Source: Macrostomum lignano (taxonomy: Eukaryota). From it: 64,000 nt of DNA. A program made the translations under genes and the position numbers. Shown here in pieces: positions 30,787 through 63,785 of this stretch; positions within the stretch are counted from its first letter, which is position 1; the number at the start of each line of letters is the position of its first letter. The stretch spans positions 292,077 to 356,076 of the forward strand of contig NIVC01001113.1 in NCBI GenBank assembly GCA_002269645.1, given 5' to 3'. The notes beneath the pieces are model-generated. The model was not told where the DNA came from. It made no database searches and saw only the letters and a program-made list of their open reading frames with translations.

Positions 30787-31101
30787 CTACAACTGTCTTA
30801 TAACTTCAGCAAAGTTATAGTAGCTGTCAAAATCGTTAATGACTACTCCATGTTTTTCAAACCAGTGAGATTTAAGTGCTTGATTAATATTAGGGACATT
30901 GATATCAACGTCGGGCCAATATTTTCTCATGTACTCGCTGCATTCAAGTTTGCATCGGTACTTGAATTTGTACAATGGATTAGGCTGAGTATAATAAGAA
31001 CCTGGAGAGACAACTGGAAACATTTTTAGAGAAAATTTAGATTTTTTCAAAGGGTAAGGACCCTGCGCTGATGATTTAAAGTCTTTGGGATCTGGTTTCA
31101 C
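30787..31101 (-). CDS. Hypothetical sub-terminal viral protein (104 aa)
   Basis: A degraded homolog lies at about 7870-8040 in fragment A. Confidence 0.5.
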   Translation of the reverse strand: MKPDPKDFKSSAQGPYPLKKSKFSLKMFPVVSPGSYYTQPNPLYKFKYRCKLECSEYMRKYWPDVDINVPNINQALKSHWFEKHGVVINDFDSYYNFAEVIRQL

Positions 31102-31184
31102 CGCTTCGGATTGAATGTGGGGAGAAGAATGCAGATTATTTTCTGATTGTTTTAGAGATGTTATGGGTGGATGTCAGTCTCAGT

Positions 31185-31220
31185 GAGCATAACAGGTGTC
31201 AGTGGACACCTGTTATGCTC
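31185..31220. other. Perfect hairpin (16-bp stem, 4-nt loop)
   Basis: gagcataacaggtgtc-agtg-gacacctgttatgctc, immediately inside the sub-terminal repeats of B. Confidence 0.9.
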
Positions 31221-33559
31221 TGATTCTGTCAGGGATAATATGGATGGATTTAGGTGGATTATGTTCGAAGTTTTCGGAGCAAAGGCGACCCCCCTTTTTT
31301 CTGATTCTATCGGGGATAATATGGATGGATTTAGGTGGGTTATGGAGGAGGTGAAAAATTTTGTCCCAGAAGCCCCCTCATGCATTCTACTACAGTATAA
31401 TGTTGCAAGAGTGGGGAGTGGCAGAGCTACATGTATATATAGTTTTATGGCAAAAGCTAAGGCCAAGTCAACGCATGCAGTGGTAAAAGCAGTCTGTAAA
31501 GCCAAATAGTGAAAGTTAACCTTAACTTATAGCACCCTGGCAGCCAATGCTGCCTGCCTGCATCTGATCTAACTAAACTAGCAGGGCAGTTGGTTGTATT
31601 TATACTTATACTTTCTGTACAACATCAATTGGTTAAGCTAAGGGCTTTTAAACGTTTTATTTATATAGTAATACTCATAAATGATTCTATTTTATTTTAT
31701 CACCAAAATCATATACTCGACTTAATCTTTCACAGAATGATGTACAGCCTTAGTTGCCTTTGCCTACTAATTTGAAGTGGCATCCTAGCTATCAATGGTA
31801 TTCTGGCTGAGAGTGAGTGCTCAATTGTTATAAATGAGTTAAATACTCATAAGCCTAACATTGGATCTCAAGAATTTTCAGACTTCATTGAGCTGAAGAA
31901 AGTTTGTTCCACAACTGCAATGCTATCAGGATCAGTGCCAGTGAGACTCCGTGATTTTCTTCTGATTGGTGTTCAAGAATATAGCGGCGATTTTAGACGA
32001 CCTGTGGTTTCATTTTCTGCTGACTTCTATCGGTCCCCGGGCTTCAAAACGGGCAGCAGTTTCTTTGTTATCGCATCAAAAGAGAAGCAGGAAACAGCAG
32101 ATATGTTATTACCGATACATCTATTGGGTATCAGGGAAAAACTAGACAAGGGCTGCCAAGTTCCGCTCCTAGGGGATCATCGCAGTCATCCATAATTGAT
32201 TTTTTCAAGTCTGCTAGCAAGACAATTCCAACAGAACCAAATGCATTAAAGAATGGGAATGGTAAAAGTGCTATGGCCATTATTCTCTTGTATCAACGAG
32301 ACTTTTCTAGACCAGAATCGGACAGTTCAAGTTCCACCACTGCCAGTAGCATTGGAAAGCTGCGACTAGCTAAAATGCATGCAACACAAAGAAGACTTGT
32401 TTATGAAGATAAAATTATAACTGATGACTCATTATCTGAAATTATTAGAAACAATGTGCATGACATGATCATCTATGCACGAAGTACACAAAATAACAGG
32501 TGCATATTTTAGTCCGTTTATCGTAGGCTAAAAGACAAGCCTAACTACATCTTAAAGCCAGCAAGAGAATGGGATGAACTTGGTCATGAGGACTATTCAA
32601 TAAACCGGTACCCTGAATCCAGCAGTGAGTTACGAAAGCCTTTGCTTTTTACAAGGTGGAAACTTGGACGGTTGACTCCAGGTAGAGAAAATGACTGCTC
32701 AGGTGCTCATTGGATTTTAGAGGACACTATTGAAGCCATCATAAATACGCCTTCAAGAGAAGCAGGTACATCGGCAGACTCAGCATTGGCATCTGCTTCA
32801 TCAGCAACAGAAAGAATCGAAAGGCGACTAGCTCCTGCTCCAGCTCCATGTTCTGAAAGCTCACACCGTAGTGAATTGGCCAGGTGTAATGAATTTTCAG
32901 AGCAAATAGCAGCTAATCGAGATCATGCTGTTCGAACTGCTGCTGCAACAGCAGAGGCGGAAGGTTGTCTGAGTGGAGATAGAGATGGAGAAACTTCTAA
33001 CTTTTGCTCTGCTGCAAATGTACAGGAAAGAAAGAGTTGTTGGAGAATGACCAGCAAACAAGCCAACGACAGGTGGAAATTATTAGGCAAGTAAATATTC
33101 AAGACAATCAACTAAACGATTATTTTGAAAAAGTCCTATTGTTGATTTAGATTCGAGCGACTCAAGTGGTTCAGGTGATGTTGAAATAGTACAAGTAAAT
33201 AATGCAGAAGCAGGGCCATCGCAAAGAAAAAGACCATGCATAAGCACATCTGCAGACGCATGTCTAGCCACTTCAGCATCAAAGCCCTCGTCTTCTTCTA
33301 TGATGGGCGAAAATATTGAAGTTGTGCCTAAAAAGGACTGGGAGGATACATCTGGTTTTGAGGGGAGTGATTAAATTTTTTGGAGATGCACCAGTCACAG
33401 TAAGTATATGGTAACTGGAAAACTGACGAACTGTAATGTATAGTGTATTCCACTCCCACTAATTTATTAGCATATTGCTTAGATACTCACAATATAGTCC
33501 AAATTCCAAAAATACTTAATTTAACCATTCCAGATCATTTTCAAAAAAGTTTTTGTCAC

Positions 33560-37406: not shown

Positions 37407-39019
37407 TGTTAGGACCGAGCGCGGCCTCAACTTCAGATTCTTAAAACCCCATCCCGCGCGCCTCGCCCACCCACCACCCCATGTACGCAGGGGATAGATC
37501 TAATGTACAGCAGACCGCTAAGAGAAGCTTTGAGCCGAAAAGATACACGCTAAACCACCACACGCAAGAATCAAAAAAATACTCTCGCTTAATTTTAGCG
37601 CTTAAATCATGGCAGCATACACCATCTATAAAGCTTACGCCCGGCGACCTGGCCAGGCCTTTGTGGACGTGAATATCCATGTCCACAAGTGCGTTAAAAA
37701 GGACGCACAAACACAGGTCGCCGAGTGCGACATCGACGGTGGCCACTCAGTGGCCACGCAAACCGCCGAACAAGACAAAGAATGGGGACGCGTGTTAACC
37801 CCTAAAAAGACTCCATGGGACGGAGGCCCCTACAAGGCCTCCGCGACCAGCCGGCCGTGGCCCACGTCACACGGCTACCACCAATATTTATGGTCCAAAG
37901 GCACCCGCCCAGAGGGCGAGGAAGACTACAATAATTAAAGCTGCCTCTCTATAACACTGAAAAACTTTGACACAACTATTTATAGACCTCTGCTAGCACA
38001 TCCTTCTCTACCTCTAATACAACGTTTTACTGCCATTTGCAGATTTCTAAAATCTTATATCTTACTATAATGGGAAACACATCAATAATAGATGGATCAA
38101 ATCCTTGTTATCACAAGGATTTCGAAAAAAGGGGGAATCATATAAGAGTTAGAAATATGATTAGCTGTCCATCAATTTGAATAGCCGAATCTAATTAAGC
38201 CTTTTCCATTCCAGTCAGTAGCCACACCCCGCCGCAGGAACAAGGGCGATTAAACTGGTTAGGAGAAGTGGCTCAGCTTAAAGAACAACGCGGCACGCGG
38301 CATCTTCTGGCGCACCCTGAGGGAGAAACGTGAGGCCCACCTACAGACTCCCATCCAACCTTAAGTGGCCCAAGAAGGCGAGATCAACCCCAAGCTGCCT
38401 GACAACCGAGAGAAACAAAGGACTGTTTAATAATCTATGGACAGAGTTTAGAGACGGAAAACTAAGCACTTTTCCTATAATCTTTCTATCCCAAATTTTA
38501 TCCAACTCAACACATAGATTTGCTAAAGCCCGAATAATCTCTAACCTTCACACTTAGCAACCTATTAGAACTAACTAAATCCATGTACAACTAGGGGACT
38601 GTGTCCCAGATTGTTATTGCTCAACCCTCCACCGTTGCTAACAACGCAAAGACACCCCACCGGCGGCGAGGGAGGCCAAAATGCTAATTGGTATAAATAG
38701 ATGCTTAGCTCAAACTGGAGCGGCGCTTTGTTTTCTCTGCGCAGTTTTCGATCTCGAATTGCTCCGTTTGAATTAGTCTCTGGATTATCCAGTTGGCACA
38801 AATCCAAGTCTTCAATATAATTATTTGTCTTAATTGTCGCGCAGAGCAAATCCTAGAGACTCAAACTCAGCTTAGATACTAGGAGATCCCGTCAGTTTAT
38901 ACGGTTTTCTCTGACGGCCTGACTGGAGAAATTAGCGCTGTACGAACCTTAGACTGCTAGACATCTATCTTAAGAAAGTGAGAACACAAACTCAAAGGCC
39001 CCAGAGAAAAACGCGTATA
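37407..39019 (+). repeat. LTR copy 2 (3' LTR, about 1.6 kb)
   Basis: Begins TGTTAGG after the purine tract aggaggggagga (37387-37398); TATAAATA at 38692; direct repeat of 10975-12213. Confidence 0.75.
37609..37938 (+). CDS. 109-aa ORF inside the LTR U3
   Basis: Open in both LTR copies (11010-11285 in copy 1) with few substitutions; no recognised domain. Confidence 0.35.
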   Translation: MAAYTIYKAYARRPGQAFVDVNIHVHKCVKKDAQTQVAECDIDGGHSVATQTAEQDKEWGRVLTPKKTPWDGGPYKASATSRPWPTSHGYHQYLWSKGTRPEGEEDYNN

Positions 39020-47034: not shown

Positions 47035-47366
47035 ATAATATGCAAAACAAGGACAACTTAAGTAGATATAAGTAGTAGAGGATAACACAACTCTGCCGCA
47101 GGGAAAGCCACGGAAATTCCGTGGGTCCGGATCAGAAGGGCGCCTATGTGTTTGCATAGCTCAACTCTGCCGCAGGCAAAGCCATGGGAATTCCTTAGAC
47201 TCCTAATGAGAGTACATAGGCACCTGTGTCCCATAGGGGTAATGTGAATACATAGCCGCATGTGTTTACATAGGAGATATTTGTATATAAACCAGAAAAT
47301 TTGTTTTCACAAATAATAAAAAAATTTGAAATTCTCGCTCCGTTACATCGTAATAACTAATTAATA

Positions 47367-47912
47367 TTGGTCGATATTGGAGAAGGCTACAAACTTCAAG
47401 TACAAGAGTATGAAGGAGTACAGTTTATTGCGATTCGGAAATTTTATCGACATGGCAGCACAGCAAGTTTAAAACCCGGCGTTCCCGGATTTAACCTCAA
47501 CATCCGACAATGGGAGAAGTTGAAAGAACTGAAGCGAACTCTCGTGAAGGCGGCCCTAGGCGGGCAACAGAGGATCATCAAACTCGGTTTTGATAAGTTT
47601 GTTGAGGTTAAGAACGGCATCATCTGGCTAAGACGGCTTCCAGAAGATTGCTGCGAAGAATTTTTGAAGCGAAACACTGTGGCTTTGGCACCAGCTCTGT
47701 GGCGAAAACTGTGGGAGCAGGCTGCATGGATCGACGAGCAGCTGTCTGCCCCACGCCAAATTTCTGATGTGTATGAGCTGGAGTCGGGATCTTCGAGCGA
47801 GAGAAACGGTGATGATGATGACAACAGCAACAAGGACGACACCATGCGGCTTGCGAAGACTGCACTCTACGCATCGACGATGAAATGGTCACATCAACGC
47901 CTCTACCGGTGA
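47367..47912 (+). CDS. Tandem PC4/Sub1-like ssDNA-binding (transcription coactivator p15) protein
   Basis: LQVQEYEGVQFIAIRKFY...LKPGVPGFNLNIRQWEKLKE matches PC4 VxIRxxY...KPGxxGIxLxxxQWxxL; a second degenerate repeat ends in VALAPALWRKLWE. Confidence 0.75.
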   Translation: MVDIGEGYKLQVQEYEGVQFIAIRKFYRHGSTASLKPGVPGFNLNIRQWEKLKELKRTLVKAALGGQQRIIKLGFDKFVEVKNGIIWLRRLPEDCCEEFLKRNTVALAPALWRKLWEQAAWIDEQLSAPRQISDVYELESGSSSERNGDDDDNSNKDDTMRLAKTALYASTMKWSHQRLYR

Positions 47913-48088: not shown

Positions 48089-48534
48089 AGAAGAAGAATA
48101 AGAAGTGCTTTGAAGAACTTTGGTGACTGGTGACATACTTAAATTGGCTCATTTAACAATTTCTATAATTAACATTGCTCATTTATCCAGAAAACTTAAT
48201 TAAGTCTCTCCATTTAAGAAAATCATGCAACTTATTGTTTCTTATCCGCTAAAAAATATAAAAGCTTCTTTTCATAAAAAAATTGTTTTCCTTTGTTCTT
48301 GTGCTTAAGAAAAAATTAGACTGTTGACTTTTGTTTCTTGAGAAAATGGAAAAAATTTACTTTGCTCCTGGCCAACCAGCTAGTTTTTCAATTTGCTCAA
48401 AGCTGCTGCATCAAGTTGGAGAAGAGGGTGGGCATAAAAATTGAAAGAGCATTGAACAGTGGCTCAATGAGCAAACCGCGAAAAGAACTTAAAAAAAATT
48501 GTTTTGCAGGCTTTCATTCAGCTTGATTTTGATA

Positions 48535-49604
48535 ATGGAAAAGATCTACTACAACCCTGCTCAGCCTGCCAGTTTCTCGGGTGTCTCAAAGCTTCTGCAC
48601 GAGCTCAAGAAAACACAGGATAATCGTGAATCTAAAAAGAGCATCGGACAATGGCTGACTGAGCAGCCTGTGTACACACTGCACAAGCAAGCTAGGAGAC
48701 GCTATCCTATGGCACCAATCATTGTTAGGGCTATTGATGATCAGTGGGAACTTGACCTGGTTGAGATGATACCATTTGCAAAATACAAAACGGCTACAAG
48801 TATATTCTCACATGTATAGATGTCCTCTCTAAATCTGGTTGGGCCAGGCCTCTAAAAAACAAATCAGCTGCGGAAGTCAAGTTCGCATTCGAGAGTATCC
48901 TGAGGTGCTCAAAGCGCCAGCCACGCACAGTCCGCACGGATCAAGGAAAAGAGTTCATCAATACAAATTTTCGGGAGCTCTGTATAAGCAAGGGAATTTT
49001 GGCATTCCCCACTAATAGTGAGCAAAAAGCAGCCATCATAGAGAGGTGGAATAGAACTTTGAAAAACAAAATGTGGCGATATTTCACCCACAAGAGCACT
49101 TTGCATTGGGTTGATGTGTTGCCAAAGCTGGTCAAGTCGTACAACAACACTTACCACAGAAGCATCAAAATGGCACCGACTAGCGTATGCAAAGAGAATG
49201 AGACTGAGGTCTGGATGAACCTTTACAATGGAAGAGCCATTGAGACTGTAAATAAGCCAAAGAAGCCCAAATTCAGTGAAAAGCAGTCAGTGAGAATTTC
49301 CAATGCACCCAGGCTATTCCACAAAGGATACAAGGCCAACTGGAGTGAGGAGGTGTACACTGTAGTATGTAGGGCACCGAAGCACTATCCGTACATGTAC
49401 AAGATTAGGGACATAAAGGGTGAGGAGATCCGGGGTCTCTTTCATGAGCATGAGCTGCAGGCGGTGCCGGACTCACAGCGACTGTATGTGATTGAGAAGA
49501 TTCTGAAAACGGAGAAGCGGAAGGGAAAAATTCGCTATCTGGTGAAGTGGGCCGGCTACGACTCGACAGGCTGGGTGGATGAAAAAGACTTAAGAAAGGT
49601 TTAG
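48535..49604 (+). pseudogene. int: Maverick integrase with C-terminal chromodomain, one frameshift near 48788
   Basis: QWELDL / RTDQGKEF / IIERWNRT DDE triad; YVIEKILK...YLVKWAGYDSTGWV chromodomain; frame shifts in the A-run caaaac. Confidence 0.93.
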
Positions 49605-49623: not shown

Positions 49624-50450
49624 ATGAGGTTTAACATTATAATGCGAACTATTTTGATTAACAGTGAGCATGCTGAAGGTACTCCTAGTGACTTTAATTT
49701 TTACCTGTCTTCACCTATTTACTTGGATCGAAATGTGGACTATGAGGCAGGTCTGGCTGAAATCCATCTGCCTGCTGCATGGTTCAATGTTGACGAGCCT
49801 TACTGCTTCACTGTCTCAGATGGAAGAGAGCATGAGGCCCTGGTTCTTCAACCCGGACGCTTTGCTAGAGTGGAGGAGCTGGTGGAGCGTTTGAATCAGC
49901 TGCTGGCCAACTCTGATTCGCTATTCTTTGATGCAATGAGTGACAGGGAGTCTGAGATGGAGGCTGATGAGTCCGGCCTGATGGGGCGTAGTGGCAACAG
50001 GGAATTCGGTATGAAGTTCGAAATCCGCAACTCACGAACTGTGGTGCACAACAACACTGCGAGAGCAGAGATGTTTCTCCCATCCAGCAAAATTCTGCAT
50101 TGGCTGGGATTTGGAAACCAGGCTGTGAAAATCCAGCCAGGGAGCCGCGTGTCCGAGCACTGCATTGGCTGCCCGCGCACCAGCTTAATCAATGTGCACT
50201 GCAGTATCGTTGAGTCAACTAATTGCAACTTGGGCTCCCTGTTGAGAACAGTTGGAATGAAAGCCGGCATTGAATGGGGCAACTATCAAACAAAAATATT
50301 TAAGAAACAATATTCTTCCCGATTCAACGAATCAGTCTTCTTCACAGCATTCGAGTTCAGCTGCGTGACATCTATGGTTGCCCACTGATTGCCCAGACAC
50401 TCAGCCCTGTTCTGCTCACAGTTCAGATTCGGGAGAAACGCATTCAATGA
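49624..50450 (+). pseudogene. Minor capsid protein (penton), element C, frameshift near 50312
   Basis: TPSDFNFYLSSPIYLD...YEAGLAEI; the alternate frame gives the expected tail FPIQRISLLHSIRVQLRDIYG...VLLTVQIR, stop at 50450. Confidence 0.85.
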
Positions 50451-50835
50451 ACTACCAGCAGCTGATCCAGCAATATTCGGGGGTGAGGACAGGACACGAA
50501 AAGCCTGCACTCTATGGTGTGGGAGCTTTCCGGGGATCATGACATACCAGCCTCCGCCAGCGGCTACATCATCATTCTCAACGCATAGCAATGTCAGGCG
50601 CAAAAGAAATACTGAAGCAAGTCCGAAACGATTGAAGAAGAAGAAGTACACCCGAAAGGCAACTGGTAGAGATCGCACCAATAAGAGGTGCAATGAAAGA
50701 AATCCGAGCAAGGCTAGTAGGAAAAAGCTTAAGAATAGGAAGACGAAAGCAAAGAAGAATGCAGCAGGCGGAGGAAAGCGAAAGCGAAAAGTCAGCAAGA
50801 AAACTGTGAAACGCGTGCTCGACTCTCTGTCATAG
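50447..50835 (+). pseudogene. Basic K/R-rich core-like protein, frameshifted
   Basis: ATG overlaps the penton stop (ATGA); MNYQQLIQQYSG...LYGVG then shifts to a very K/R-rich tail; located just upstream of MCP. Confidence 0.55.
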
Positions 50836-52125: not shown

Positions 52126-52635
52126 ATGGAAGCAATTCAACTACTCCATCTCGCCAGAAAATTTTTGTCTTGCCGAAAATTCTTCATCATTACTTTACAT
52201 TCACGCTATAAAAATGTATTGTCTTTGAGTCTAAAAAGAAAATATCGATCAATTCCCTTTGAAAACAAGTTTGTGTTTATCCTACTACAGCACAATGGCT
52301 CATTTGGTCATTGGGTGGTGTGCTATGCTGGGCAAGGAAATTGCATTGAGCTGTTCAACTCCCTCGGCTGGGAACCTGAAATTTTATCTGTGGTTTATAA
52401 TTTGTTTCGAGAGATTAAAACAACTGGCTTTTATCTCCGAAGCAATATAAACAGATTTCAATGTGCTAACTCTAATAAATGCGGAGTGTTTTGCATCTAT
52501 TTTGCTTATCAAAAGTTGCTGATCAATCGGTCATTTGAGGGTATTTTAAAGAGTTTGCACTCTAATGAAAAAAATCATTTGAATGATAGAATCTTACAGA
52601 GGTTTGAAGCCAACTTAAGAAAAAGATGTCCGTGA
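52126..52635 (+). CDS. Adenain-like cysteine protease, element C
   Basis: GHWVVC...ELFNSLG...FQ...KCGVFCIYF; Asn replaces the usual FDS Asp. Confidence 0.85.
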   Translation: MEAIQLLHLARKFLSCRKFFIITLHSRYKNVLSLSLKRKYRSIPFENKFVFILLQHNGSFGHWVVCYAGQGNCIELFNSLGWEPEILSVVYNLFREIKTTGFYLRSNINRFQCANSNKCGVFCIYFAYQKLLINRSFEGILKSLHSNEKNHLNDRILQRFEANLRKRCP

Positions 52636-52664: not shown

Positions 52665-53312
52665 ATGGGAGAAAAGCGAGTTTGCTACGATATCCGCCTC
52701 AGGCAGGGAAGCTGCATGATTGTCTGCGGGCCCACCAATGCAGGAAAAACAACCTTTGTCAAACACCTGATCCAGTACAGAGACGTCATGTTTGATGTGA
52801 AGCCTGGCAGAGTTCTGTGGTACTATGGGATCTCACAGGCAGGCCATGCAGAACTGAGCAGCCTAGGTGTGCAGCTGCGCCAGGGATTCCCCACCAACAT
52901 CGAGGCAGCACTTAGGCCCAATGACCTGGTTGTTTTCGATGACTTAATAGAGGAAACTTCAAATTCTGCTTCAATGCGAAATTTTTTCACAGGAATCGCA
53001 CATCACTTGCCGTGCTTTTTGGTGATGCTGACTCAGAATATATTTTTCAAGGGAAAAGAGTCGCGAACAATGAGCTTGAATGTAATGTACTTAGCTATCT
53101 TGAAAAACCCCCGAGACCAGCTGCAGATTGCAGCACTGGGCAGGCAGTGCTTTACAGAGAAGCCCGGCTTTCTGCTGTCAGTGTTCAAGCACGTGACCGC
53201 GCAGAACAGGGGAGCCTACCTGTTCCTAGACTTTCACCCATCAACTCCCGATGAGCTGCGAGTGCGGGCCAGAATTTTGCCCAACCAGCGACCCCATCTT
53301 GTATTTGCTTAA
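52665..53312 (+). CDS. A32-like packaging ATPase, element C
   Basis: VCGPTNAGKT Walker A, LVVFDDL Walker B, AHH...TQNIF, KNPRD motifs. Confidence 0.93.
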   Translation: MGEKRVCYDIRLRQGSCMIVCGPTNAGKTTFVKHLIQYRDVMFDVKPGRVLWYYGISQAGHAELSSLGVQLRQGFPTNIEAALRPNDLVVFDDLIEETSNSASMRNFFTGIAHHLPCFLVMLTQNIFFKGKESRTMSLNVMYLAILKNPRDQLQIAALGRQCFTEKPGFLLSVFKHVTAQNRGAYLFLDFHPSTPDELRVRARILPNQRPHLVFA

Positions 53313-53354
53313 GAAAGTGAAGCTTGTTTTTTATCGGCTATTGTTTTCATCGCT

Positions 53355-53693
53355 ATGGAAGTGCTTGATTCACATGCAAGTCTTTTTGCGGTTCTTGCGT
53401 CACCTAAATATACCGTGCGCTTCAAGCAGCTGTTGATAAAAAATTGTCCAAAAGAAGTGCGTTATTTTCTTGTTGAGGCCTGTCATAATCTCTTACAAAA
53501 CAATTTATCGTTTTCGATCGATGAAAAAGCTGTTCTTGCAAAGTCAAAAGAGATAATTCGAAAAATTACTCAGCAGAGAAGAAAGATAGACTTGTTAAAG
53601 GCTGGCTTCATCAAAATACTCCCGATTCTGCTTAAGCTGGTAAAGAAAAAGAAGCAAAATGAACAAATTTTCAGAAATGGTTCTGATTTCTAA
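53355..53693 (+). CDS. Conserved Maverick hypothetical protein
   Basis: LLIKNCP...LVEACHNLLQ...LAKSKEIIRKI...GFIKILP pattern recalled from Maverick ORFs downstream of the ATPase. Confidence 0.6.
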   Translation: MEVLDSHASLFAVLASPKYTVRFKQLLIKNCPKEVRYFLVEACHNLLQNNLSFSIDEKAVLAKSKEIIRKITQQRRKIDLLKAGFIKILPILLKLVKKKKQNEQIFRNGSDF

Positions 53694-54351
53694 AGCAGAG
53701 TATGAGATGTTAGTGCAGAATTTGAAGCCAAATGAGACTAGCACTGACGCTGACTTGAAGCAGGCTCAGAAGAAATGCGATGATATCTTGTATGCCGAGG
53801 ATTATCCAGAAGATGTGAAAACCGCCATGTATCAAAGTGCAATGCAAAGTTTGCTGGCCAAGCGCAAGCACGCTGGAAAAGAAGGATCACGAAATACTGA
53901 AGCCAAGTTGATGAAAATAGAGACACCCCAGATGAACACCTGGGAAGAGAAGATCAGCAAGTCGGTGCCACAGAAATTCAAAACCAGGGCTCGCAGTCTA
54001 TGGACGATCCTGTCCACCAATCCAGAGCTGATTGGAGTTTGTGAAAACGGAGAGGTGGAAATCGCAGGCACGTCAATCCCTTCCTCAAACATACTGGACT
54101 TGATTCAGCACGCAGTGAGGGATTCGTCATGTGAGCGTGAACCAGTTGGGTGGAACGAGTTCATCGATTTGCTGCAGCAGAAAAAGCTTAATGTTCCGCT
54201 TTCTGCTGTTGGTAAATCAGTTAAGAAGAAAATGGCAACCAGCAGAGGGGGTGAACTGGAGAAAGAACAGGAGAGTCTAGTCAAGGGGTACGGGAGCAAC
54301 ACAGCCTGGCTGAAACTGCCTGGCAGAAAAGTATATAAGAAGGTGGACTGA
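53659..54351 (+). CDS. Conserved Maverick hypothetical protein
   Basis: MVLISKAEYE...DVKTAMYQ and IPSSNILDLIQH...PVGWNEF...LNVPLS pattern recalled from Mavericks. Confidence 0.6.
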   Translation: MNKFSEMVLISKAEYEMLVQNLKPNETSTDADLKQAQKKCDDILYAEDYPEDVKTAMYQSAMQSLLAKRKHAGKEGSRNTEAKLMKIETPQMNTWEEKISKSVPQKFKTRARSLWTILSTNPELIGVCENGEVEIAGTSIPSSNILDLIQHAVRDSSCEREPVGWNEFIDLLQQKKLNVPLSAVGKSVKKKMATSRGGELEKEQESLVKGYGSNTAWLKLPGRKVYKKVD

Positions 54352-54379: not shown

Positions 54380-55231
54380 ATGAACTACATTGACTTCCAA
54401 GGATTCCCGTGCAACAGCACAAGCAAAAAATTTGTTGTGAAGGAGTTGGCAGTTGTTCAAGTCAGAGCGGGAAGCTACCGAATTGCTCACCATGTGTACG
54501 CACCTCCGTATCCATGGGAGAGAGTCTCACCTGACATGCGAGTTTGCTACAGACAGCTATCAAAGAGTCTGCACCAGTTTAAGTGGAATGATGGAACCCG
54601 TCCGTACATGGAACTGGCGGAAGACATTCTGAGGATTGCCAGTGGTCCGATCTGGACAAATGGGGAAAGGAAGTCTATTTTCCTGACTGAGCTGCTTGGT
54701 AGACAGGTTTATAACCTAGAAGATTTGGGAGCACCCTCGACTGAAGATTCAGATACTGGCTGTGCAGTGAGAAATTCGTTGCTGCACTACAGTTGGCTTA
54801 AGCCAAAGTTCTGCATCAACTTAAGAAGCGAGCAGTGTCCGTGGCACACGAGCAGTAAAGTTGGCAGAAGCAGATTTGGTGAAGAAGTTGACGATCGAAA
54901 TGAGCCCACCAGCTACAGCCCTAAGAGTGAGCAATCTGGTTGGCGGAGTAGATCTGAGGCTGGATGGTGGCAGGGGCGCTCAGCTACCTCTACGGGAACT
55001 GGCTCTCAGCATGGCTCATGTGATCTACCGGCCCGTCTGGCCCCGGGTGCTCATCAAGCGGATGCGAAGTCCCAGAGTGACTCTGCTACTCTACCCTACT
55101 GGGCAACTGAGCATCTGCGGTGCCAAGACCCACGCAGACGCCAAAAGGGCTGCCCGTCGCTTCGTGGCTATGCTGCATCGGAGAGTGCCAGCTCAACTGC
55201 TGCCTCCTCAAGCCATTTGTGTTCGGATTAA
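54380..55231 (+). CDS. DEDD 3'-5' exonuclease-like protein; 3' half is read-through overlapping the TBP gene
   Basis: IDFQGF...FVVKELAV, KSLHQFKWNDG, NLEDLGAP, CAVRN pattern. Confidence 0.55.
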   Translation: MNYIDFQGFPCNSTSKKFVVKELAVVQVRAGSYRIAHHVYAPPYPWERVSPDMRVCYRQLSKSLHQFKWNDGTRPYMELAEDILRIASGPIWTNGERKSIFLTELLGRQVYNLEDLGAPSTEDSDTGCAVRNSLLHYSWLKPKFCINLRSEQCPWHTSSKVGRSRFGEEVDDRNEPTSYSPKSEQSGWRSRSEAGWWQGRSATSTGTGSQHGSCDLPARLAPGAHQADAKSQSDSATLPYWATEHLRCQDPRRRQKGCPSLRGYAASESASSTAASSSHLCSD

Positions 55232-55490
55232 AACTATTACTGCTCATGGTAAATTTAACTTCTGCAATGCTTTGTCCCTCACAAATCTTGCTGCCTCTGG
55301 CATACTGTCTTACGCTGAGTATGAGCCCGAGTCGTTCTCTGCTCTAATTTATACATTACGTTATTGTAAATGCTTGTTATTTCATACTGGTTCTTTTGTT
55401 CTTAGTGGAGCAAAATCTATGAGCATGTTGCGCTTCGACCTTTCTACGTTACATAGTTTAATCAGCCAGTTTATCACCTATCAAAAATAA
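54861..55490 (+). CDS. TATA-binding protein (TBP/TRF) homologue encoded by Maverick C
   Basis: Two TBP repeats: VSNLVG...LRELAL...YRP...LIKRMRSPRVTLLLYPTGQLSICGAKT...AARRF and YEPESFSALIY...LLFHTGSFVLSGAKS, collinear with NIV..[33 protein letters not shown] and YEPELFPGLIY..LLIFVSGKVVLTGAK. Confidence 0.88.
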   Translation: MAEADLVKKLTIEMSPPATALRVSNLVGGVDLRLDGGRGAQLPLRELALSMAHVIYRPVWPRVLIKRMRSPRVTLLLYPTGQLSICGAKTHADAKRAARRFVAMLHRRVPAQLLPPQAICVRIKTITAHGKFNFCNALSLTNLAASGILSYAEYEPESFSALIYTLRYCKCLLFHTGSFVLSGAKSMSMLRFDLSTLHSLISQFITYQK

Positions 55491-56217
55491 ACAAAAAGTG
55501 TGTTCCGTTTGTTCTTGAATGTTTGCGTAAATTCATTACGGAAAACCGCATCTTTAAATTATTTATTTTTATTTTAAAAAATAAGTTTTAACTAAAAAAT
55601 TAAAGGTGAAATGAGCATAGAATAATTGAAAACTGGGAGCTAAAACGCGTAATCAGATCTCTCCCTCACAAAAACAGAAAAGGGCATAGAACCCATTCCA
55701 AAAAGGTTCTGCCAAAAGCGAAATTGCTTAGATTGATACACGTGAATGAAGAAATTAATTAATCAAACTCGACTGACACTCATACATGTAACTGGACCGC
55801 AAAATTACTAGTATAGGCAAGAAATTTCAACAAAAGCAATGCAAAGAAATGTTTTAGCATCATGTTAAAAAATTAATAAATGAACATAAAACTCAGCAAT
55901 AAAAATTTCAATACATTAAATTTACTGACTTTGCAATTTAATATTACGAGTAGAAATCGTGCAGTTACAAGGTACTGAAATAAAATTACTAATAAATTAA
56001 TAGCTAGCATTAAGACTTCAGACAAAAAGTTCAAAAAGACACTAAAATTACGGTGAAACAGGGGAGGCAAATTGCTGCAACTTCTTCTATCTGAGATAGC
56101 AAAATTGAGACAGCATATAATTTAAACGGATAAAGGCGAGTATATGTTTGAAGAAACCAAAGACTAAATATTCAGAATAAAATGTGTAGAGGCCGTGTGA
56201 TAAAAAGTTATACTCAG

Positions 56218-59200
56218 TCACTTATTAAATTCGTAGTCTTCTTCCCGTCGCCGCTTTCGGGAGGCTGTAGCATTCACGTGCTGTTGCAGCTGCGACGACT
56301 CCGGATGAAGAAGTTGAAAATGGCCAAACGGGAGACTGTAGTTCGGTGCAAGCCAAGCGCGCTTGTCCTCCCAAATGCTTAAGGCACACTTTCGCTGCTG
56401 CAGCGTGAATAGCCTGTGTTGGATGCTAGCGATCCTGTGGATGATGACGGACATGCTACTCAGATCATTGAAGACTCTCAAGTAATCACTATGCGCAATC
56501 TCCTTCTTGACAACACATCCTTGAATGCCTTTGGCTTTTTTCTTTTCAGCAGTTGCAGTGCTAGCGAGAAAGGAATACAGCTTTGGTCTCAAAAGCAACC
56601 ATTCGAGATAGCGAGCTCCAGCTCCTTCGTCCTTGATGCAACCGAGGCGAGCTTTCAATTCATTTGAGAACAGCGGGTGCTCAGGTGAATAGTTGGAAGT
56701 GTCAAGGAGTTTCTTTGCTTTTAGCAGTGGAAGAACTTCCGACTGCACATCCATATTCTGAATGCAAAGAAAGAGCGAGTCGGTGTCTCCACCACAGAGC
56801 CGAACACGGGCACCCTCTTGCTCAAGCCAAGGCTTCAATTTGTCGTAGAATAACTCGTACATGATTAGCTTCGAATAGTCAAGAACACACTGGCCAATAA
56901 AAATCGGACGATCAAGCTTGACCTTAGTCTTCTGGAATTCAATTATGCTCAGTGAGTCGGTAATTATGATAAAGTTCTTAATGGATGGTTTTGAAGCCAG
57001 CACCTTTGCTTTTGCAGTGTTGGTGCAAATCCGAATGTCACGTCGCTTACGCACGTTTTCCATTGTTTTTCCGAAGAGCGCATTGTTTTTTAGTTTGTAG
57101 TAGTCTTTCTCGAAGCTGTTTGTCGCAGCAGCTCTTTTCACGCTGTTCATGTTAACATAGTCAGCAAATATCGGCTCCTGTTTGTACTCAATCATTCGAT
57201 TAATTCGTTTGATTTTCATTCCATGGCTCAAGTAGAATGCCAAGATAGCCGAATGAAGCACATAACTCTGCTTGTCATGGCAGGTGAGCAGAAGTTTTTC
57301 TGCCGAACGATAGGCTGCTTTGTCTCCAGTAATCTGCCTCCAAAGCTGTTGCATGTAGGCAGGAAATTCTTTGAATTTTGGTGCTTCTTTTTCTGGTGCA
57401 AAAGGCAAATCTTCAGTGGTGGAATGTATCTCTGCTGGATATAGAAGATCGACATCGAGCAGATAAGCAATTGGATCTGAGATTTTGAGCCCTCGGATAC
57501 GATCCTCGGTCCACAGCTGTAGCTCATCTTCGGAAAGCCAGCGAAATCCATTTGCAGGTAAGTTCATGGTAAGAGCTTGACCGTAAAGGTTGTTAGCATC
57601 TACTGCTAGAAGCTCGGTAGGAACAGCTTGATCAGCGCCCTCGTCGTGACAGTCATCATCATCATCATCATTGTCATTGCAGATAGTCTGATTGTCAGCT
57701 GCTTCCAAATTTTTTCTAATATCTGGAGAGTTGGCTGACACTCTGTGTATGTTCACAAATGACATGCCACCGCGAATACCGCGCTCGAATGTTGCATACA
57801 TTTGCGAATCCGTAATCAGCTCGATTCTGGATTTGAGAGACTTCAGTGCTGAAGCAAAAGATAATCCCGGGGTTGAAACGAAATGCACCGGATCAAGGCC
57901 ATCATCACGAAGGCTGAGCTTGCGAAAATTTTCAAAGACATCGGCGAGCTGCCGAATGTCAAGCTCAAGGTAGCATAGCATGTACTCTTTCAGCGTTTTA
58001 ACTTGGAATTCATGCCATGCTTTCTGTGCATGCCTGTAATCCTCATCACTGCAGTGGCTTTTAGTCAGAACGTTGTAGAATTGTTCTTTACTTGGCAGCT
58101 CGGTATCCTCAAGGACATTTGAATTAGTTAAGTAGTCGTACGGAAAAGTGCATTTTCTGAATAAAACTTCTGGAGACAACAGTGGAAACTTACTTTTTAG
58201 CAGGCTAGTGATGGTGCACTCTTCTTCTGGCAGGTTCTTGATCAGCTGAGCCAAGCTGGCGTTGAGAAATTGGTTAGAATCAATGAATTGAATGGTAAAG
58301 AACAATGGCTTAGTCTTTCCTCCCCTCTCGTACTCATCGATTTTGAAGTCAACTTTCATTGAAACAAACTGCTCAGGATTCTGTGGAATAACCGAAATCC
58401 TCCATCCATCCATGAGATCCAAAGCCGTTGACATAATGAGATGAAGGTCATAGCCTTTTAGATTGTGGAAAACCACAGGAAGAAAGCGCCTTTTTAGACG
58501 AGCCTGCATGTTGCACTGAGCACAGGCTGCACCTCGGAATTCGCCACTGAGGTGATCATGATCCCAGTGCTTTCCGCTTTCACTATCAAAGCCGCTTCCG
58601 CAGTAGTGACACGATATAGCGTCGCGGAAGCGTTGCTTTGCAGCCTCCGTTCTAATAGCCGTCTGATGACTGAACTCCGTGTTCCAGCCATAAACCTCTC
58701 GAGCTAGCTGTTCAAGGGACTGCAAGAAGTCAGAAACACACTTTTTCGGATTTTCACTCACAAATATGTTAACATCATTGTCGACTCCTATAGGTGATAA
58801 CCCTGTGAGGCCTGCTCGGTGCACCACCAAGTAACCAGCAGCAACGGCAACATGCTCTGTCAGCTTTACAGTGCTCGAACCAGCTTCAGTCTGCTGCCCT
58901 GTGTGAGGTGCATTCAATGCCTCGAAGTCGGCGTACACAATGAATGGTGGGCTGATTGTCTTTTCCCACGCCGTAAACCGAAGTACATTGTGATCTTCAT
59001 CCGGAAGTTCTTCCTGAACAAAAATCCCACCAGGCTCACAGATATCTTCACAGTGCTCATCGAACGCCTTGCTAGTGTGAAATGACAGCAGACATCGCTC
59101 ACACCACTTTCGCTGGTACAGGTGGGCTTTACTGTTCAGCAATCTGTTGATGTTCGAGACAGCACACCAATGACCACCAGCTGAGTTCTCGTTCGTGGAT

Positions 59201-60562
59201 GGTGGAAGAAACATCAGCAGGACAACTGTTCGTCCTCTCATGGTAGCTGCGCTTGGCTGTCGGAGGACTTCAGCAGCTTCATTCTCCCAGGTGAAAACAG
59301 TGAAGCAAAGGGTTGGATTTAATTCCTCGACAGCAGACAGATCGTACAAATTGATCGGCAGACTCAGTCCCGTAATGTTAATCTCATCTAGCCATTCGGT
59401 GTACGAGGATTCTCGTTGAGCTGACTTCTTAATACGGCAGTGATCTTTGTGAAGAAAGGCAAGGCACGCGTAAACAAAGCAATTTTCACCGCTGCTAGGA
59501 GGAGAAATGACGGCCTTCTTTTGAAAAAGCGCAGTCGGCAAACTAAACCCAGCCGCATGCCCCGAATAGTAGGGAGTTCGAACAGCGAGGGCAGAGCAAA
59601 GGTCGAAGAAATTTATTTTGTCAATGGCCCATCCACTGCCATTAGCGTTGTACACGTCTACTCTCTGCTCTAACTCTGCAAATTGCTGCCTCCACCAGTC
59701 ATCAAATTCCTGCACATCAACCAGCATACAAAGATTTGTACTCATCCATTTGTTTTCAACATTGACTGCTTCTGCTGCCTGCACCCGAATCATGCGCACG
59801 TTTAGCTTAATTTGTGCTCTTAGCGAACAGTTGTCAAAGGAGTCAAGACGAACTTCGAGATACTGCAGAACCGCATGTTTGACCAGGTCTAGAAACTCGA
59901 ATGGATCAATGTCAGCTGTTGGGGCGAAGCGATGAATCTGCAGTACATCATCGTGGGCACTGTTCACCAAGGAGATAACACATGAAGACCCTAAAAATAA
60001 AATCGAGAGATAAGATAGTGAAAATCGAGAAACATAAACTGAGAGTCTCATGATTGCTTATAAATCCAGCTCAATTAGCTATTCATAATAATCGATGTCT
60101 GTATTCAGAATCGAGGAGGGTGTTTTTGGATGTATACAATCGATATAGGTGTGCAGAGGTGTGCGAAGTCGAGGTGGGGTGTCCAGAGTCGAGGTGTGGT
60201 GTCCAGAGTCGAGGTGGGGTGTCCGGAGTCGAAGAAGGGATGTGCAGAGTCGAGGAGGGGTGTGCGGAGTCGAGGAGGGGGTGTGCGGAGTCGAGGAGGG
60301 GGTGTGAAGAGTCGAGGAGGGGGTGTGCAGAGTCGAGGACGGGGATGTGCAGAGTCAGGGTTGGTGTACGGACTCGGGGTGGGCGGGTGTTATTACGCAT
60401 TAATTAAAACTGAATTAGTTACACATTTCGAGTTGAAGGTTTAAAATTTTTCCACTTCAAATATTGGTAAGAAAATAATTGATTTTTTACATTAACAGAG
60501 TGGCAAAACTCACCTGCTCCTTCACCTGCTCTTCGCCTAGAACATGTTGTAGGATCCTGCAT
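56218..60562 (-). CDS. polB: Protein-primed DNA polymerase B of element C; predicted exon 1 60562-60514, intron 60513-59991, exon 2 59990-56218
   Basis: Uninterrupted ORF with CHYC...DHDHLSGEFRGAACAQCN, VDANNLYG, YKLKNNALFGKT and GDTDSLF; the GTGAGT donor and TTTTTAG acceptor join in frame. Confidence 0.92.
60150..60360. repeat. About 19-21 bp minisatellite (GTGCAGAGTCGAGGAGGGG) inside the predicted polB intron
   Basis: About 10 tandem units. Confidence 0.9.
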
Positions 60563-61324: not shown

Positions 61325-62308
61325 TTAAGAGTTACTCAAGCGAATACGGATCCCCCCTCCAAAGTCAATTGAGTACTCGCCCACAACGCTACTCGGTAGG
61401 ACGAATTGAAGGCAAACTGACGGTGCAGCCATCGGTTCAGCGGCTTGGACTCCTGCTGATTGTTGAACCACCGGTGGGGTAGCATGAGGTTCGACTCCTG
61501 CTGATTGTGGAAACTCTGGTACCACCGGTGGGGTAGCATGAGGTTCGAAATCTCGTAGGAGATCAGACAGGCTGGCATCCGCCATCATTCCAGCCATATT
61601 TTTTCCAGCGACTGGAACAGCCCTGTGCGGTGGCTGCTGCTCGACCGTGGCTTTTTCGTTCGTCTCCTCCGGCTCCAACTCGTGCTCCTCAAAGAAAGCC
61701 GTGTCCAATTCTGGCGGAGCAACAAAATCAGCGGCAGCAGCATCATCGTCATGGCGATTTACCGGTGTCTGAAGACTGAGAGCACCAGCCGCTGGAACGT
61801 CAACGCTGGCAGCTTGATGGTCGATGCCAGCAGGTCCAGGAGCAGCAGCTGGATAGTCGACGCTGGCAGGTCCAGGAAGGCTGGCAACATCAGCTGGATG
61901 CTGATCTGCAGCAGCAAGTGCAACGGAAATCAAATCAAAAGTACATGTAGTTGAAATTATTGCAGATTGATTTCGCACACCTTGAATCGTCTGGCTCAGG
62001 GTGCTGACCGGGGCTCGATGACGCTCGATCATGTTGAGTTGCTCCTGGCGGTGGGCGGCCTCCAGTACAGTAAAGCGGGCTCGTTCGATGCTATCAGGCG
62101 AGCTCCAATTAATGATGGTGTGATTTTTATGGGCCCGAACTTGGCGGCGCACATTGAACAGCTCAGTTGTCTGGCACTCGTGGCAAAGCAACCAGCGACT
62201 TATAATGCAGCTGTCTTTTTTGTTATGGAGCTTTAACCCACCGAGCTCACATGAATTGCAGCTGATGCACACCTCGTGCACGTAGGATGGACACCGAGAT
62301 TTATTCAT
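61325..62308 (-). CDS. Cys/His-rich, acidic/Pro-rich putative regulatory protein with an LxCxE motif
   Basis: N-terminal CxxC/H clusters (CISCNSC, LLCHEC, HKNH), long acidic Ala/Pro region, duplicated VEPHATPPVV. Confidence 0.6.
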   Translation of the reverse strand: MNKSRCPSYVHEVCISCNSCELGGLKLHNKKDSCIISRWLLCHECQTTELFNVRRQVRAHKNHTIINWSSPDSIERARFTVLEAAHRQEQLNMIERHRAPVSTLSQTIQGVRNQSAIISTTCTFDLISVALAAADQHPADVASLPGPASVDYPAAAPGPAGIDHQAASVDVPAAGALSLQTPVNRHDDDAAAADFVAPPELDTAFFEEHELEPEETNEKATVEQQPPHRAVPVAGKNMAGMMADASLSDLLRDFEPHATPPVVPEFPQSAGVEPHATPPVVQQSAGVQAAEPMAAPSVCLQFVLPSSVVGEYSIDFGGGIRIRLSNS

Positions 62309-63785
62309 TATTTAAAAATCTATGAGAAATTTAGTTTAAAATAAAATTTAAATTTAAACTTCTCATATGCACATATTTAGCCTCTTATATACCCACTTCA
62401 ACCAAATCTGTGTTAATAAAAACATAGCCGCTATGTTTTCAGCTTTGCTATGTTTACAGTCAGCCACCCAATGTCCAATGATTTCATCAGCGCATCCAGG
62501 TATTGAGCCCTTGTTAAATTCCCGCACGCCCCGCTAAATTCTTTTGAATACGCCGCCAACTTTACCCCACCCAGTCGAGGGTGGCAATAAAACTACTGAT
62601 AACTGAGCACTCTCTCCTTTCAGCAACAAAGCCGCCGCCGCCGCCAGCTCCCAGACAGCGGGAGAGAGAGAGGCTTGGCTACCACTATTTTTGTTTACAG
62701 AAGTTTGTTATTACCGATAAAATTATATAATAAAGTATTAGTATAATACTGAATACAATAAAATACCGCTGATATTTGCCAATCGTTCAACACAATTTCT
62801 AGAGATTCCCCTAGCTCGCCTCTGTGCATACTTGCGGATTCCCCCATGAGGTGCCTATGTACTCTCATTAGGAGTCTACGGAATTCCCATGGCTTTGCCT
62901 GCGGCAGAGTTGAGCTATGCAAACACATAGGCGCCCTTCTGATCCGGGCCCACGGAATTTCCGTGGCTTTCCCTGCGGCAGAGTTGTGTTATCCTCTACT
63001 ACTCATATAGATATGTTACTGAGTAGTCATTGATGCATAAGCATGCACTTTTGTAGTCTGCGCCCCCCCCCGTTCAAAAATTTCTAGATCCGCAACTGAA
63101 GCCTTTTATGTTAAAACTATTGCCAATTTATTCCTTAATTGGCCATTATTGCTTGTGAGAGTAGACTATGCACTCAGCAGCATGTTAATAGCTTCCACGC
63201 CGAAGACAGACAAACAGACAGACAGACAGACCGACAGTTTTTCTGGACGCCTAGAAAAATGTACATTTAAAATCTGTTGGTGACACAAAAAATTTAAGGC
63301 TTAAAGCTACTCTTGTGCTTAAGTGAAAATGTACTAAAATGTGTCCAGCGGTGTCGGAACATATTTCAAAGTGGGGGGGGGCTATTGGTGGGAGGGCACA
63401 TTGCAAATTATTTTTTTAATCTAAAGGCACCCTAACTCCCTGCTTGCGACATTAATTGTGACAACCAGGCAATATTCGATTCTGTGTTGGAAGTGGCCAA
63501 AGTCAGAAAAGTTCGAATTTTCAACTAATTCAAACAGTGCGCAACTGCACTGCACTATCAATTTATTTAGTAAATACCTCAAATGATTGAAAATTGCCAG
63601 GCAAGACCAGTAATTTTCTGGATCTCTTGGCTGCCTCCTTCAGTTCCTCTTGGCGCCGTCTCATTATTTTATGTGACGGCATTTTTTGTGCTTTTAGTTG
63701 CGCGCCAGAAGCGGTTTAAGTCTAGGGATTGCGGCGGACTCGGAATTTCGATCAGAGATTTAGTAAAAGAGCTGAATACTAAAAC

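What the first reader, a model, noticed from the sequence alone, without database searches (positions are those of the whole stretch)
54861..55490. A Maverick/Polinton virus encodes its own TATA-binding protein homologue
Seen: an intact 209-aa ORF well inside TIR- and TSD-bounded element C, co-oriented with the virion gene block, with both TBP saddle repeats. The second-repeat intercalating Phe pair is kept (ESF, LLF). The first pair is altered (P/W, Y) and the second-repeat Asn becomes Thr. It is intronless and ends in an AATAAA-overlapping stop. Known: TBP homologues occur in nucleocytoviruses, but Mavericks are generally described as lacking transcription machinery; I do not recall a Maverick TBP. 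Inference: the virus may redirect or antagonise host Pol II initiation with a divergent TBP of altered DNA specificity.
Basis: partly seen in the sequence, partly recalled or inferred. Interest (0 to 1): 0.92.

Follow-up and report, generated by a model that had tools for sequence, protein, structure and literature searches.

The report
Maverick-borne TBP with matching promoter box
A family of virus-like DNA elements in this animal genome carries its own altered version of the TATA-binding protein, kept under selection, and a shared non-standard TATA-like box sits in front of the genes of the same block, which suggests the element switches on its own genes with a private promoter code.

Summary
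Confirmed, with one correction: the protein is 196 aa from the ATG at 54900, not 209 aa. It has the TBP fold (Pfam E 5e-26; model pLDDT 90, TM about 0.8). It is a fixed gene, not a one-off retrocopy: at least 151 matches in the genome, same gene neighbourhood in two lineages only about 35% identical, dN/dS mostly 0.1-0.2. It keeps the TFIIB-binding glutamates (19 of 19 sequences) while the element has no TFIIB, and it has invariant changes on the DNA-facing side. New here: a TATA-like box, YWTAAGAA, occurs 9 times in the element, all on the sense strand of the integrase-to-TBP block, and at matching places in both lineages. Best reading (0.6): the TBP reads this box and recruits host TFIIB/Pol II, like herpesvirus ORF24 with TATT. 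Binding, start sites and expression were not tested. A figure legend in Starrett 2021 already lists a TBP in a related non-animal element, and this scan noted Polinton TBPs in two other genomes (unchecked). I found no paper that analyses them.

The parts
54900..55490 (+). TBP-like gene, 196 aa, two repeats
   Evidence: selection
54820..54827 (+). CTTAAGAA box 80 nt before the TBP ATG, inside the upstream ORF
   Evidence: present before TBP in 15 of 15 lineage-A loci; lineage B has TATAAAAG here instead
55486..55491 (+). AATAAA overlapping the TBP stop, end of the sense-strand block
   Evidence: similar hexamer at or after the stop in several but not all siblings
54380..55231 (+). Upstream ORF, 283 aa, Maelstrom-like by a lead only; its tail overlaps TBP codons 1-111 in another frame
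   Evidence: Atlas features: unnamed arthropod clusters 0.91-0.93, Maelstrom 0.88, recognition score under the tool's mark; no Pfam hit; overlap
54334..54341 (+). TATAAGAA box 46 nt before ORF 54380; overlaps TATATAAG at 54332, which fits a canonical TATA pattern
   Evidence: same place in lineage B
53308..53315 (+). CTTAAGAA box over the ATPase stop, 47 nt before ORF 53355
   Evidence: TATAAGAA at the same place in lineage B
52614..52621 (+). CTTAAGAA box 51 nt before the ATPase
   Evidence: not found at this place in lineage B
50728..50735 (+). CTTAAGAA box 110 nt before the putative major capsid gene
   Evidence: CATAAGAA at -102/-104 in lineage B
50299..50306 (+). TTTAAGAA box 240 nt before the small basic ORF
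   Evidence: TATAAGAA at the matching place in lineage B
49589..49596 (+). CTTAAGAA box at the integrase end, 35 nt before ORF 49624
   Evidence: identical in lineage B
48304..48311 (+). CTTAAGAA box 231 nt before the integrase (a second, TTTAAGAA, at 48213)
   Evidence: one box about 240 nt before the integrase frame in lineage B
47072..47225 (+). left terminal inverted repeat, starts AGTAGT; flank GATATA at 47066-47071
62849..63002 (-). right terminal inverted repeat; flank CATATA at 63003-63008
47361..47912 (+). PC4/Sub1-like ORF (domain 47376-47528); open for 183 codons here, about 249 in most close siblings
   Evidence: PF02229 E 2.5e-7
48535..49604 (+). retrovirus-like integrase with chromodomain; split over two frames in this copy
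   Evidence: rve E 2.4e-11, Chromo E 1.2e-5
49624..50388 (+). ORF, 254 aa, minor capsid protein by position only
   Evidence: no Pfam hit; homologous frame at the same place in lineage B
50539..50835 (+). small basic ORF, 98 aa
50838..52046 (+). putative major capsid gene (position and conservation only); this copy leaves the siblings' frame near codon 356
   Evidence: fold not shown
52126..52635 (+). adenain-like protease
   Evidence: Peptidase_C5 E 0.003, under the cut-off
52665..53312 (+). packaging-type ATPase
   Evidence: Pox_A32 E 0.011 and P-loop families, under the cut-offs
53355..54351 (+). two ORFs of unknown function (53355-53693, 53659-54351), conserved in lineage A
56218..60051 (-). 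protein-primed family B polymerase, 1277 aa, convergent with TBP
   Evidence: polymerase motifs read from the sequence (recalled patterns); Pfam matched only an endonuclease VII insert
61325..62308 (-). ORF, 327 aa, unknown; TATATAAG 83 nt upstream

Best explanation
The gene is a long-standing, selected part of one Maverick/Polinton clade. Its product is a promoter-specificity factor: it binds the element's own TATA variant (YWTAAGAA, most often CTTAAGAA), which sits once in front of most genes of the integrase-capsid-ATPase block, and it hands over to the host's TFIIB and RNA polymerase II through the conserved acidic stirrup. Genes behind a canonical TATA (PC4-like, ORF 61325, ORF 54380; TBP itself in lineage B) would be read first by host TBP, the box-bearing genes later. 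SHOWN: fold, copy number, neighbourhood, purifying selection, residue pattern, absence of an element TFIIB, strand-specific and position-conserved box. INFERRED: that the box is a promoter, that this TBP binds it, that it binds TFIIB, and the early/late order.
For: Fixed gene: TBP match next to ORF 54380 in 18 of 18 element loci fetched and next to the ATPase in 17 of 18, including lineage B at 34-35% TBP identity; 48 of the 50 best ATPase matches have a TBP match 2-7 kb away (compared by eye; one miss is at a contig end). Selection: window vs L030 dS 0.56, dN 0.066; repeat 2 pairs L034-L036 0.125, L030-L029 0.10. Residues (19 element sequences, yeast numbering): N69, E186, P187, E188, F190, F207 kept 19 of 19; F116Y, T124C, Q158K, N159T, V203K, V208H in 19 of 19. 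Ravarani 2020 (PMC7221094) ties E186/E188 to TFIIB/Brf binding and reports about 40% conservation in viral TBPs, nearly all of which have their own TFIIB; the genome shows only 15 TFIIB-repeat matches on 7 contigs, no multicopy family. Box: 9 sense and 0 antisense in the element; CTTAAGAA 6 against a shuffled mean of 1.0, maximum 4 in 100; 71 sense and 2 antisense over 18 loci (related copies, not independent); six matching positions in lineage B; it falls in different reading frames, so codon choice does not explain it. The TBP-less Maverick in the same window has 2 + and 3 - copies, none within 110 nt of a same-strand start. Precedent for the logic: KSHV ORF24 and TATTWAA (PMC12529657).
Against: No binding, start-site or expression data. 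The box was picked from these upstream regions first, so the window's own count is post hoc; single-locus shuffles are modest (5 of 200 reached the count in both L023 and L032). Distance to the ATG varies from 35 to 240 nt, and in lineage B the first ATG of the gene after the integrase is only 12 nt behind the box start, too close for a TATA box. The protease, ORF 53659 and the polymerase have no full box within 100 nt in this copy. In lineage A the TBP gene itself sits behind the box, which needs a priming route. TATAAGAA and TTTAAGAA variants may be readable by host TBP. Only one TBP-less Maverick served as control. The capsid identity of the block's main gene is not shown. Some pairs show weak or no constraint (L028-L036 repeat 2: 0.42; L023-L025 repeat 1: 2.7).
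Confidence: 0.6

Rival explanations
1. The box is a promoter read by host TBP/TRF2 or another host factor; the element TBP is a decoy that ties up TFIIB/Brf or TBP regulators and damps host transcription or defence.
For: The TFIIB stirrup is invariant while half of the intercalating Phe set is changed; several boxes are close to a canonical TATA.
Against: A decoy gives no reason for invariant new residues on the DNA face across lineages 35% identical, nor for the box being missing from the TBP-less Maverick's upstream regions.
Confidence: 0.2
2. The box is a TAAG-type late promoter for the polymerase of a helper virus (as virophages share motifs with giant viruses); starts lie inside the motif, and the TBP does something else.
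For: The core contains TAAG, the baculovirus late motif (recalled, not from a call); a start inside the motif would fit the 12-nt spacing in lineage B.
Against: Bare TAAG is common in the element (91 sites, 7 near starts against 3.2 expected); the conserved unit is longer; no helper virus was looked for or seen.
Confidence: 0.07
3. The box is an RNA signal (3'-end or splice/branch signal) and is unrelated to the TBP.
For: Four boxes lie at or within about 25 nt of the upstream gene's stop; TAAG resembles a branch point (recalled).
Against: Others lie 85-400 nt before the stop; the last gene of the block ends in AATAAA, not the box; no steady pyrimidine tract follows.
Confidence: 0.07
4. The protein has a non-transcriptional DNA role, such as bending the termini for replication, integration or packaging.
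For: TBP lobes bind nucleic acid in other settings (PMC7221094); the second repeat travels with the polymerase side in recombinants.
Against: Does not explain the kept TFIIB glutamates; no box in the terminal repeats.
Confidence: 0.05
5. A one-off captured retrocopy of host TBP, drifting neutrally.
For: No introns.
Against: At least 151 matches, dN/dS mostly 0.1-0.2, relatives outside this genome, grouping with host TBP rejected, p-AU 0.015.
Confidence: 0.01

Closest known systems
Cellular TBP (PF00352; host copy L021, 3 contigs)
   Same: Two-repeat saddle (TM about 0.8), N69, EPE stirrup, F190/F207.
   Different: About 30% identity; F99 and F116 replaced, N159T, polar or charged residues on the DNA face, two-residue deletion in repeat 2, short insert in repeat 1, no N-terminal extension.
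Beta/gammaherpesvirus TBP mimic ORF24 with TATTWAA late promoters (PMC12529657; abstract and introduction read)
   Same: Proposed logic: virus-coded TBP-fold factor plus a divergent TATA box, using host Pol II.
   Different: ORF24 binds Pol II directly within a six-protein viral complex; this is a bare 196-aa TBP core that keeps the TFIIB stirrup. Function is shown there and only inferred here.
Nucleocytovirus TBP-TFIIB pairs (PMC7221094; passages and two parts of the results read)
   Same: Viral TBP in a dsDNA virus.
   Different: Those come with a viral TFIIB and keep the key Glu in about 40%; here no element TFIIB and both Glu in 19 of 19. Structural hits to them are weaker (best E 3e-11, 13% identity).
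Adintoviruses / MELD viruses (Starrett 2021, PMC8502044; passages, section 3.4 and text of Fig. S2 read; figures not visible)
   Same: Integrase, polymerase, ATPase and protease block; MAEL and MOSUB labels occur in their maps; a TBP label is in the Fig. 5 legend.
   Different: That legend is for non-animal elements; no TBP label in the readable text of the animal maps; no analysis of residues, selection or promoters in what I read.
TRF2/TLF (host copy L022)
   Same: A TBP paralogue with altered Phe set and non-TATA specificity (the latter recalled).
   Different: Different substitutions; tree puts them apart, though a joint clade is not rejected (p-AU 0.20).
Unnamed short (167-188 aa) TBP family in assemblies and metagenomes (A5; P0226 cluster of 198 members)
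   Same: Thr at the second Asn (42 of 44), same two-residue deletion (44 of 44), E186/E188 mostly kept; neighbour of the element clade in the tree without starred support.
   Different: Mostly keeps both first-repeat Phe; genomic context could not be fetched.

Membership tests
TBP family (PF00352) | two TBP repeats above the curated cut-off | tested here: met
   90.8 bits vs 22.9, two stretches
TBP family (PF00352) | saddle fold | tested here: met
   pLDDT 89.9; TM 0.73-0.82 to solved TBPs
canonical TATA-binding TBP | four intercalating Phe and both central Asn | tested here: not met
   2 of 4 Phe, 1 of 2 Asn, in all 19 element sequences
canonical TATA-binding TBP | acidic TFIIB stirrup (E186, E188) | tested here: met
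   19 of 19; role of the residues from PMC7221094
canonical TATA-binding TBP | binds promoter DNA and TFIIB | not testable with these tools
   needs binding assays
Maverick/Polinton | terminal inverted repeats with AGTAGT/ACTACT ends | tested here: met
   motif as in PMC8097293
Maverick/Polinton | 6-bp target-site duplication | tested here: met
   6 of 6 in 4 of 7 lineage-A end pairs, 5 of 6 in this copy, 4 and 2 of 6 in the other two; 6 of 6 in one lineage-B element
Maverick/Polinton | retrovirus-like integrase | tested here: met
   rve E 2.4e-11
Maverick/Polinton | protein-primed family B polymerase | tested here: inconclusive
   1277-aa ORF with B-family motifs by eye (recalled); the Pfam polymerase model did not match
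Maverick/Polinton | packaging ATPase and adenain-like protease | tested here: inconclusive
   E 0.011 and 0.003, under the cut-offs
Maverick/Polinton | double jelly-roll major capsid protein | tested here: inconclusive
   no Pfam or PDB hit; model pLDDT 35
Nucleocytovirus TBP-TFIIB system | virus-coded TFIIB partner | tested here: not met
   15 TFIIB matches on 7 contigs, no multicopy family
Herpesvirus ORF24-type activators | large protein with Pol II-binding N-terminus in a viral activator complex | tested here: not met
   196 aa, TBP core only; works-like comparison only
host TBP retrocopy | nests with host TBP | tested here: not met
   p-AU 0.015
TRF2/TLF | one clade with TRF2 | tested here: inconclusive
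   not in the best tree, not rejected (p-AU 0.20)

The most novel reading that the evidence does not exclude
A widespread, unrecognised branch of animal Mavericks/Polintons runs a one-protein late-transcription switch: each lineage carries a compact TBP whose DNA face has co-evolved with a private TATA variant and which plugs into host TFIIB. The many short unnamed TBPs in assemblies would be its members, giving a natural series of TBP-box pairs and a third, independent viral solution beside the giant-virus TBP-TFIIB pair and herpesvirus ORF24.
Probability: 0.4. Interest if true: 0.92.

Novelty: new variant of a known kind. Interest (0 to 1): 0.8.

Why it matters
How Mavericks time and drive their own genes in the nucleus is open; they are usually drawn as having no transcription factors. 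A selected TBP with a candidate box gives a direct test: one small protein, one 8-nt motif, and a recently expanded family (10 matches identical in protein sequence) in an animal genome. It would also be a natural altered-specificity TBP, useful for understanding how the saddle reads DNA, and it warns that multicopy 'TBP' annotations in invertebrate genomes can be element genes.

Tried and rejected
Expression: the run search listed no holder on record as RNA and laying reads gave no result; no evidence either way. Complex prediction of the TBP with the host TFIIB core: no verdict, score 0.01. Folding the putative capsid protein: pLDDT 35, so no fold search was run; PDB sequence search blank; no similarity to the other Maverick's capsid protein. 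Context for relatives outside this genome: viral-contig scans with the protein, A1 and A6 found nothing; A4 and A5 gave 2 and 45 loci at 31% identity or less; the two I read are giant-virus contexts, and none of 49 such loci matched any of 12 other element proteins; L041 and L089 were false positives; the first metagenome scan was blank; L090 is a 528-nt contig without context. The 209-aa start: rejected. 'Lineage B has no polymerase': my own early reading, wrong; it lies at the other end. A protein role for the overlapping tail of ORF 54380: not supported, dN/dS above 1 in its own frame, although the frame stays open more often than synonymous shuffles predict (p 0.001-0.04 per locus). Origin of the gene: unresolved; joint clades with TRF2 or with four giant-virus TBPs are not rejected. 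Print searches without a paper analysing a Maverick TBP.

Full report
1. OBSERVATION. The ORF is real and TBP-like, but starts at the ATG at 54900 (196 aa); the 209-aa frame begins with TTG, and four sibling loci have an in-frame stop directly before the ATG. Pfam PF00352 matches both repeats (E 4.8e-26); PDB sequence hits are archaeal and eukaryotic TBPs; an AlphaFold2 model from 16 aligned sequences has pLDDT 89.9 and matches solved TBPs at TM 0.73-0.82. The residue statements and the AATAAA over the stop are correct. The ORF lies in a 15.9-kb element with AGTAGT-ended inverted repeats. Its 6-bp duplication matches at 5 of 6; of 7 end pairs examined, 4 matched 6 of 6, all at different sites.

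2. WHAT THE ELEMENT IS. Gene order on +: PC4-like, integrase, two ORFs, putative capsid, protease, ATPase, two ORFs, a Maelstrom-like ORF, TBP; on -: polymerase and one ORF. Integrase, repeats and duplication meet the Maverick tests; polymerase, ATPase and protease are supported only by motifs or sub-threshold hits, and the capsid fold was not shown. This copy is not intact: integrase, PC4-like and capsid frames are broken. The closest named proteins are from the flatworm Macrostomum lignano (83-88%), so the host is probably that animal or close kin (inference from source names).

3. A FIXED, SELECTED GENE. The genome (764 Mb) gives 151 matches from 150 scored of 227 candidates; 10 are identical in protein and 94 of the 150 listed rows are near full length without stops (counted by eye). 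A second lineage, 34-35% identical in TBP and about 41% in capsid and ATPase, has 17 near-full open matches. In 18 of 18 element loci fetched (chosen to span the identity range) TBP follows the same upstream ORF, and 17 of 18 hold the ATPase; conversely 48 of the 50 best ATPase matches have a TBP match 2-7 kb away (by eye). Pairwise Nei-Gojobori values among 15 sequences are mostly 0.1-0.2 where dS is measurable, in both repeats; many repeat-2 pairs are saturated; exceptions are 0.33-0.42 in two repeat-2 pairs, 0.4-0.7 in near-identical pairs with few changes, and 2.7 for one lineage-B copy. In the overlap the TBP frame, not the upstream frame, is the constrained one. Relatives of both lineages exist in other assemblies and metagenomes; a profile search of 1.84 billion representatives gave 8 hits under 1e-30, 7 of them element-type. 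Their contigs could not be read.

4. ORIGIN. In a 50-row mixture-model tree the 8 element sequences form one clade (100/99) outside the branch holding host TBP and TRF2, next to unnamed short TBPs without starred support (a 163-row quick tree agrees). Joining them to host TBP is rejected (p-AU 0.015); joining to TRF2 or to four giant-virus TBPs is not (0.20, 0.23). Long branches limit this; rows were chosen from search hits. The donor is unresolved.

5. RESIDUES. In yeast numbering (via host TBP), all 19 element sequences keep N69, E186, P187, E188, F190 and F207, and all 19 carry F116Y, T124C, Q158K, N159T, V203K, V208H and T73G; P191 is never kept and E93 is lost. Ravarani et al. 2020 (PMC7221094; passages and two parts of the results read) assign E186/E188 to TFIIB and Brf binding, find about 40% conservation in viral TBPs, and report that almost all TBP-bearing viruses carry their own TFIIB. 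Here a TFIIB search finds 15 matches on 7 contigs and no multicopy family. Inference: the partner is host TFIIB or Brf, and the DNA face has a fixed new chemistry. That V203 and P191 influence which bases TBP accepts is recalled, not from a call.

6. THE BOX. Reading 27 upstream regions showed TAAGAA in 11. YWTAAGAA occurs 9 times in the element, all on +, all between the integrase leader and TBP. CTTAAGAA occurs 6 times against a shuffled mean of 1.0 (maximum 4 in 100); 4 of the 6 lie 15-100 nt before a start (0.2 expected) and the others at 110 and 231 nt. The pattern was chosen after seeing these regions, so I tested it elsewhere: 71 sense against 2 antisense over 18 related loci; 5 in L023, all sense, and 3 in L032, each reached by 5 of 200 shuffles. 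Six positions match between the lineages (before integrase, the ORF after it, the basic ORF, capsid, ORF 53355 and ORF 54380), in different reading frames. It is absent before the ATPase in lineage B, where TBP has a canonical TATAAAAG instead. The TBP-less Maverick in the same window has 5 copies on mixed strands and none within 110 nt of a same-strand start among 12 ORFs. The + strand has two other AATAAA before the one at the TBP stop (47315, 52474), so nested transcripts with a shared 3' end are plausible but not shown. Against a plain TATA role: variable spacing, a 12-nt gap to one ATG in lineage B, and three genes without a nearby box.

7. MECHANISM. Best reading (0.6): host TBP starts genes with canonical TATA, including a route to the element TBP; the element TBP then binds the box and recruits host TFIIB/Pol II to the integrase-capsid-packaging block. 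This works like KSHV ORF24 with TATTWAA (PMC12529657; abstract and introduction read) but is not a member of that family. Rivals: decoy (0.2), helper-virus TAAG promoter (0.07), RNA signal (0.07), non-transcriptional role (0.05), retrocopy (0.01).

8. NOVELTY. Starrett et al. 2021 (PMC8502044; passages, section 3.4, supplement search and text of Fig. S2; preprint passages) list TBP in the Fig. 5 legend for non-animal MELD viruses and related elements; I could not see the figure, the slide supplements were unreadable and the archive was cut, so which element it is stays open. MAEL and MOSUB are labelled in their animal maps; TBP is not in the readable text. Passages of four further papers (PMC8097293, PMC10675990, 10.64898/2026.10.13.758929, 10.1101/2025.04.19.649669) show no Maverick TBP; the last reports Polinton-type insertions in flatworms and the third reports module swapping like that seen here. 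Ten searches (listings and abstract starts) found no analysis; subscription papers and Repbase were not searchable. This scan noted Polinton TBPs in two other genomes, one with a TATAAAC box that spares the TBP gene (AI notes, unchecked, read after my motif tests). They made me read the short-TBP family as probably Polinton-borne; they are not evidence.

9. VERDICT. Observation partly confirmed (length corrected); a real, selected, clade-wide gene with a candidate cognate promoter box. New variant of a known kind; interest 0.8.

Noticed in passing
window 54900-55490 against L026-L036: The TBP gene is a mosaic point: nucleotide identity to four close siblings is 90-100% up to codon 100 and 25-83% after codon 120; upstream genes stay 83-98% identical in protein while the polymerase falls to about 45-55%. 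The polymerase side swaps inside the TBP gene and the frame survives.
   Followed up: partly
window 54380-55231: The upstream ORF runs about 110 codons into TBP in another frame in 13 of 15 sequences checked, including lineage B, yet its tail is not under protein constraint. Unexplained; may couple translation.
   Followed up: partly
window 47361-47912: The element also carries a PC4/Sub1-like domain; 107 PC4 matches in the genome, many beside these elements. In lineage B it lies at the other end. Co-activator or single-strand binding role is open.
   Followed up: partly
L109 and L024 (G000:C110): Lineage B element of about 12.9 kb with 1.1-kb inverted repeats, 6-bp duplication, and a shorter 699-codon polymerase frame upstream of the integrase; 17 near-full open TBP matches among about 40 rows (counted by eye).
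   Followed up: partly
window 15856-31391: A second, unrelated Maverick (integrase, polymerase, A32 ATPase, jelly-roll capsid, PLA2-like gene) with at least 97 capsid matches, no TBP and T-rich then A-rich tracts right before most start codons.
   Followed up: partly
P0226 cluster: 198 members, many fragments, on contigs up to 5 Mb (40 read, 15 listed): looks like a multicopy short-TBP repeat in another eukaryote assembly.
   Followed up: no
P0018-P0021: Database proteins that join element TBP pieces to other frames; probably gene-prediction or frameshift artefacts.
   Followed up: no
window 1375-2711: Primase-polymerase and D5-like helicase pieces on the minus strand, perhaps another mobile element.
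   Followed up: no
window 9498-10565 and 37624-39019: Mariner-type transposase whose flank recurs about 26.5 kb downstream at 95-99% identity.
   Followed up: no
window 60175-60381: Tandem 21-nt G-rich repeat just upstream of the polymerase start; lineage B has similar repeats within its terminal repeats.
   Followed up: no
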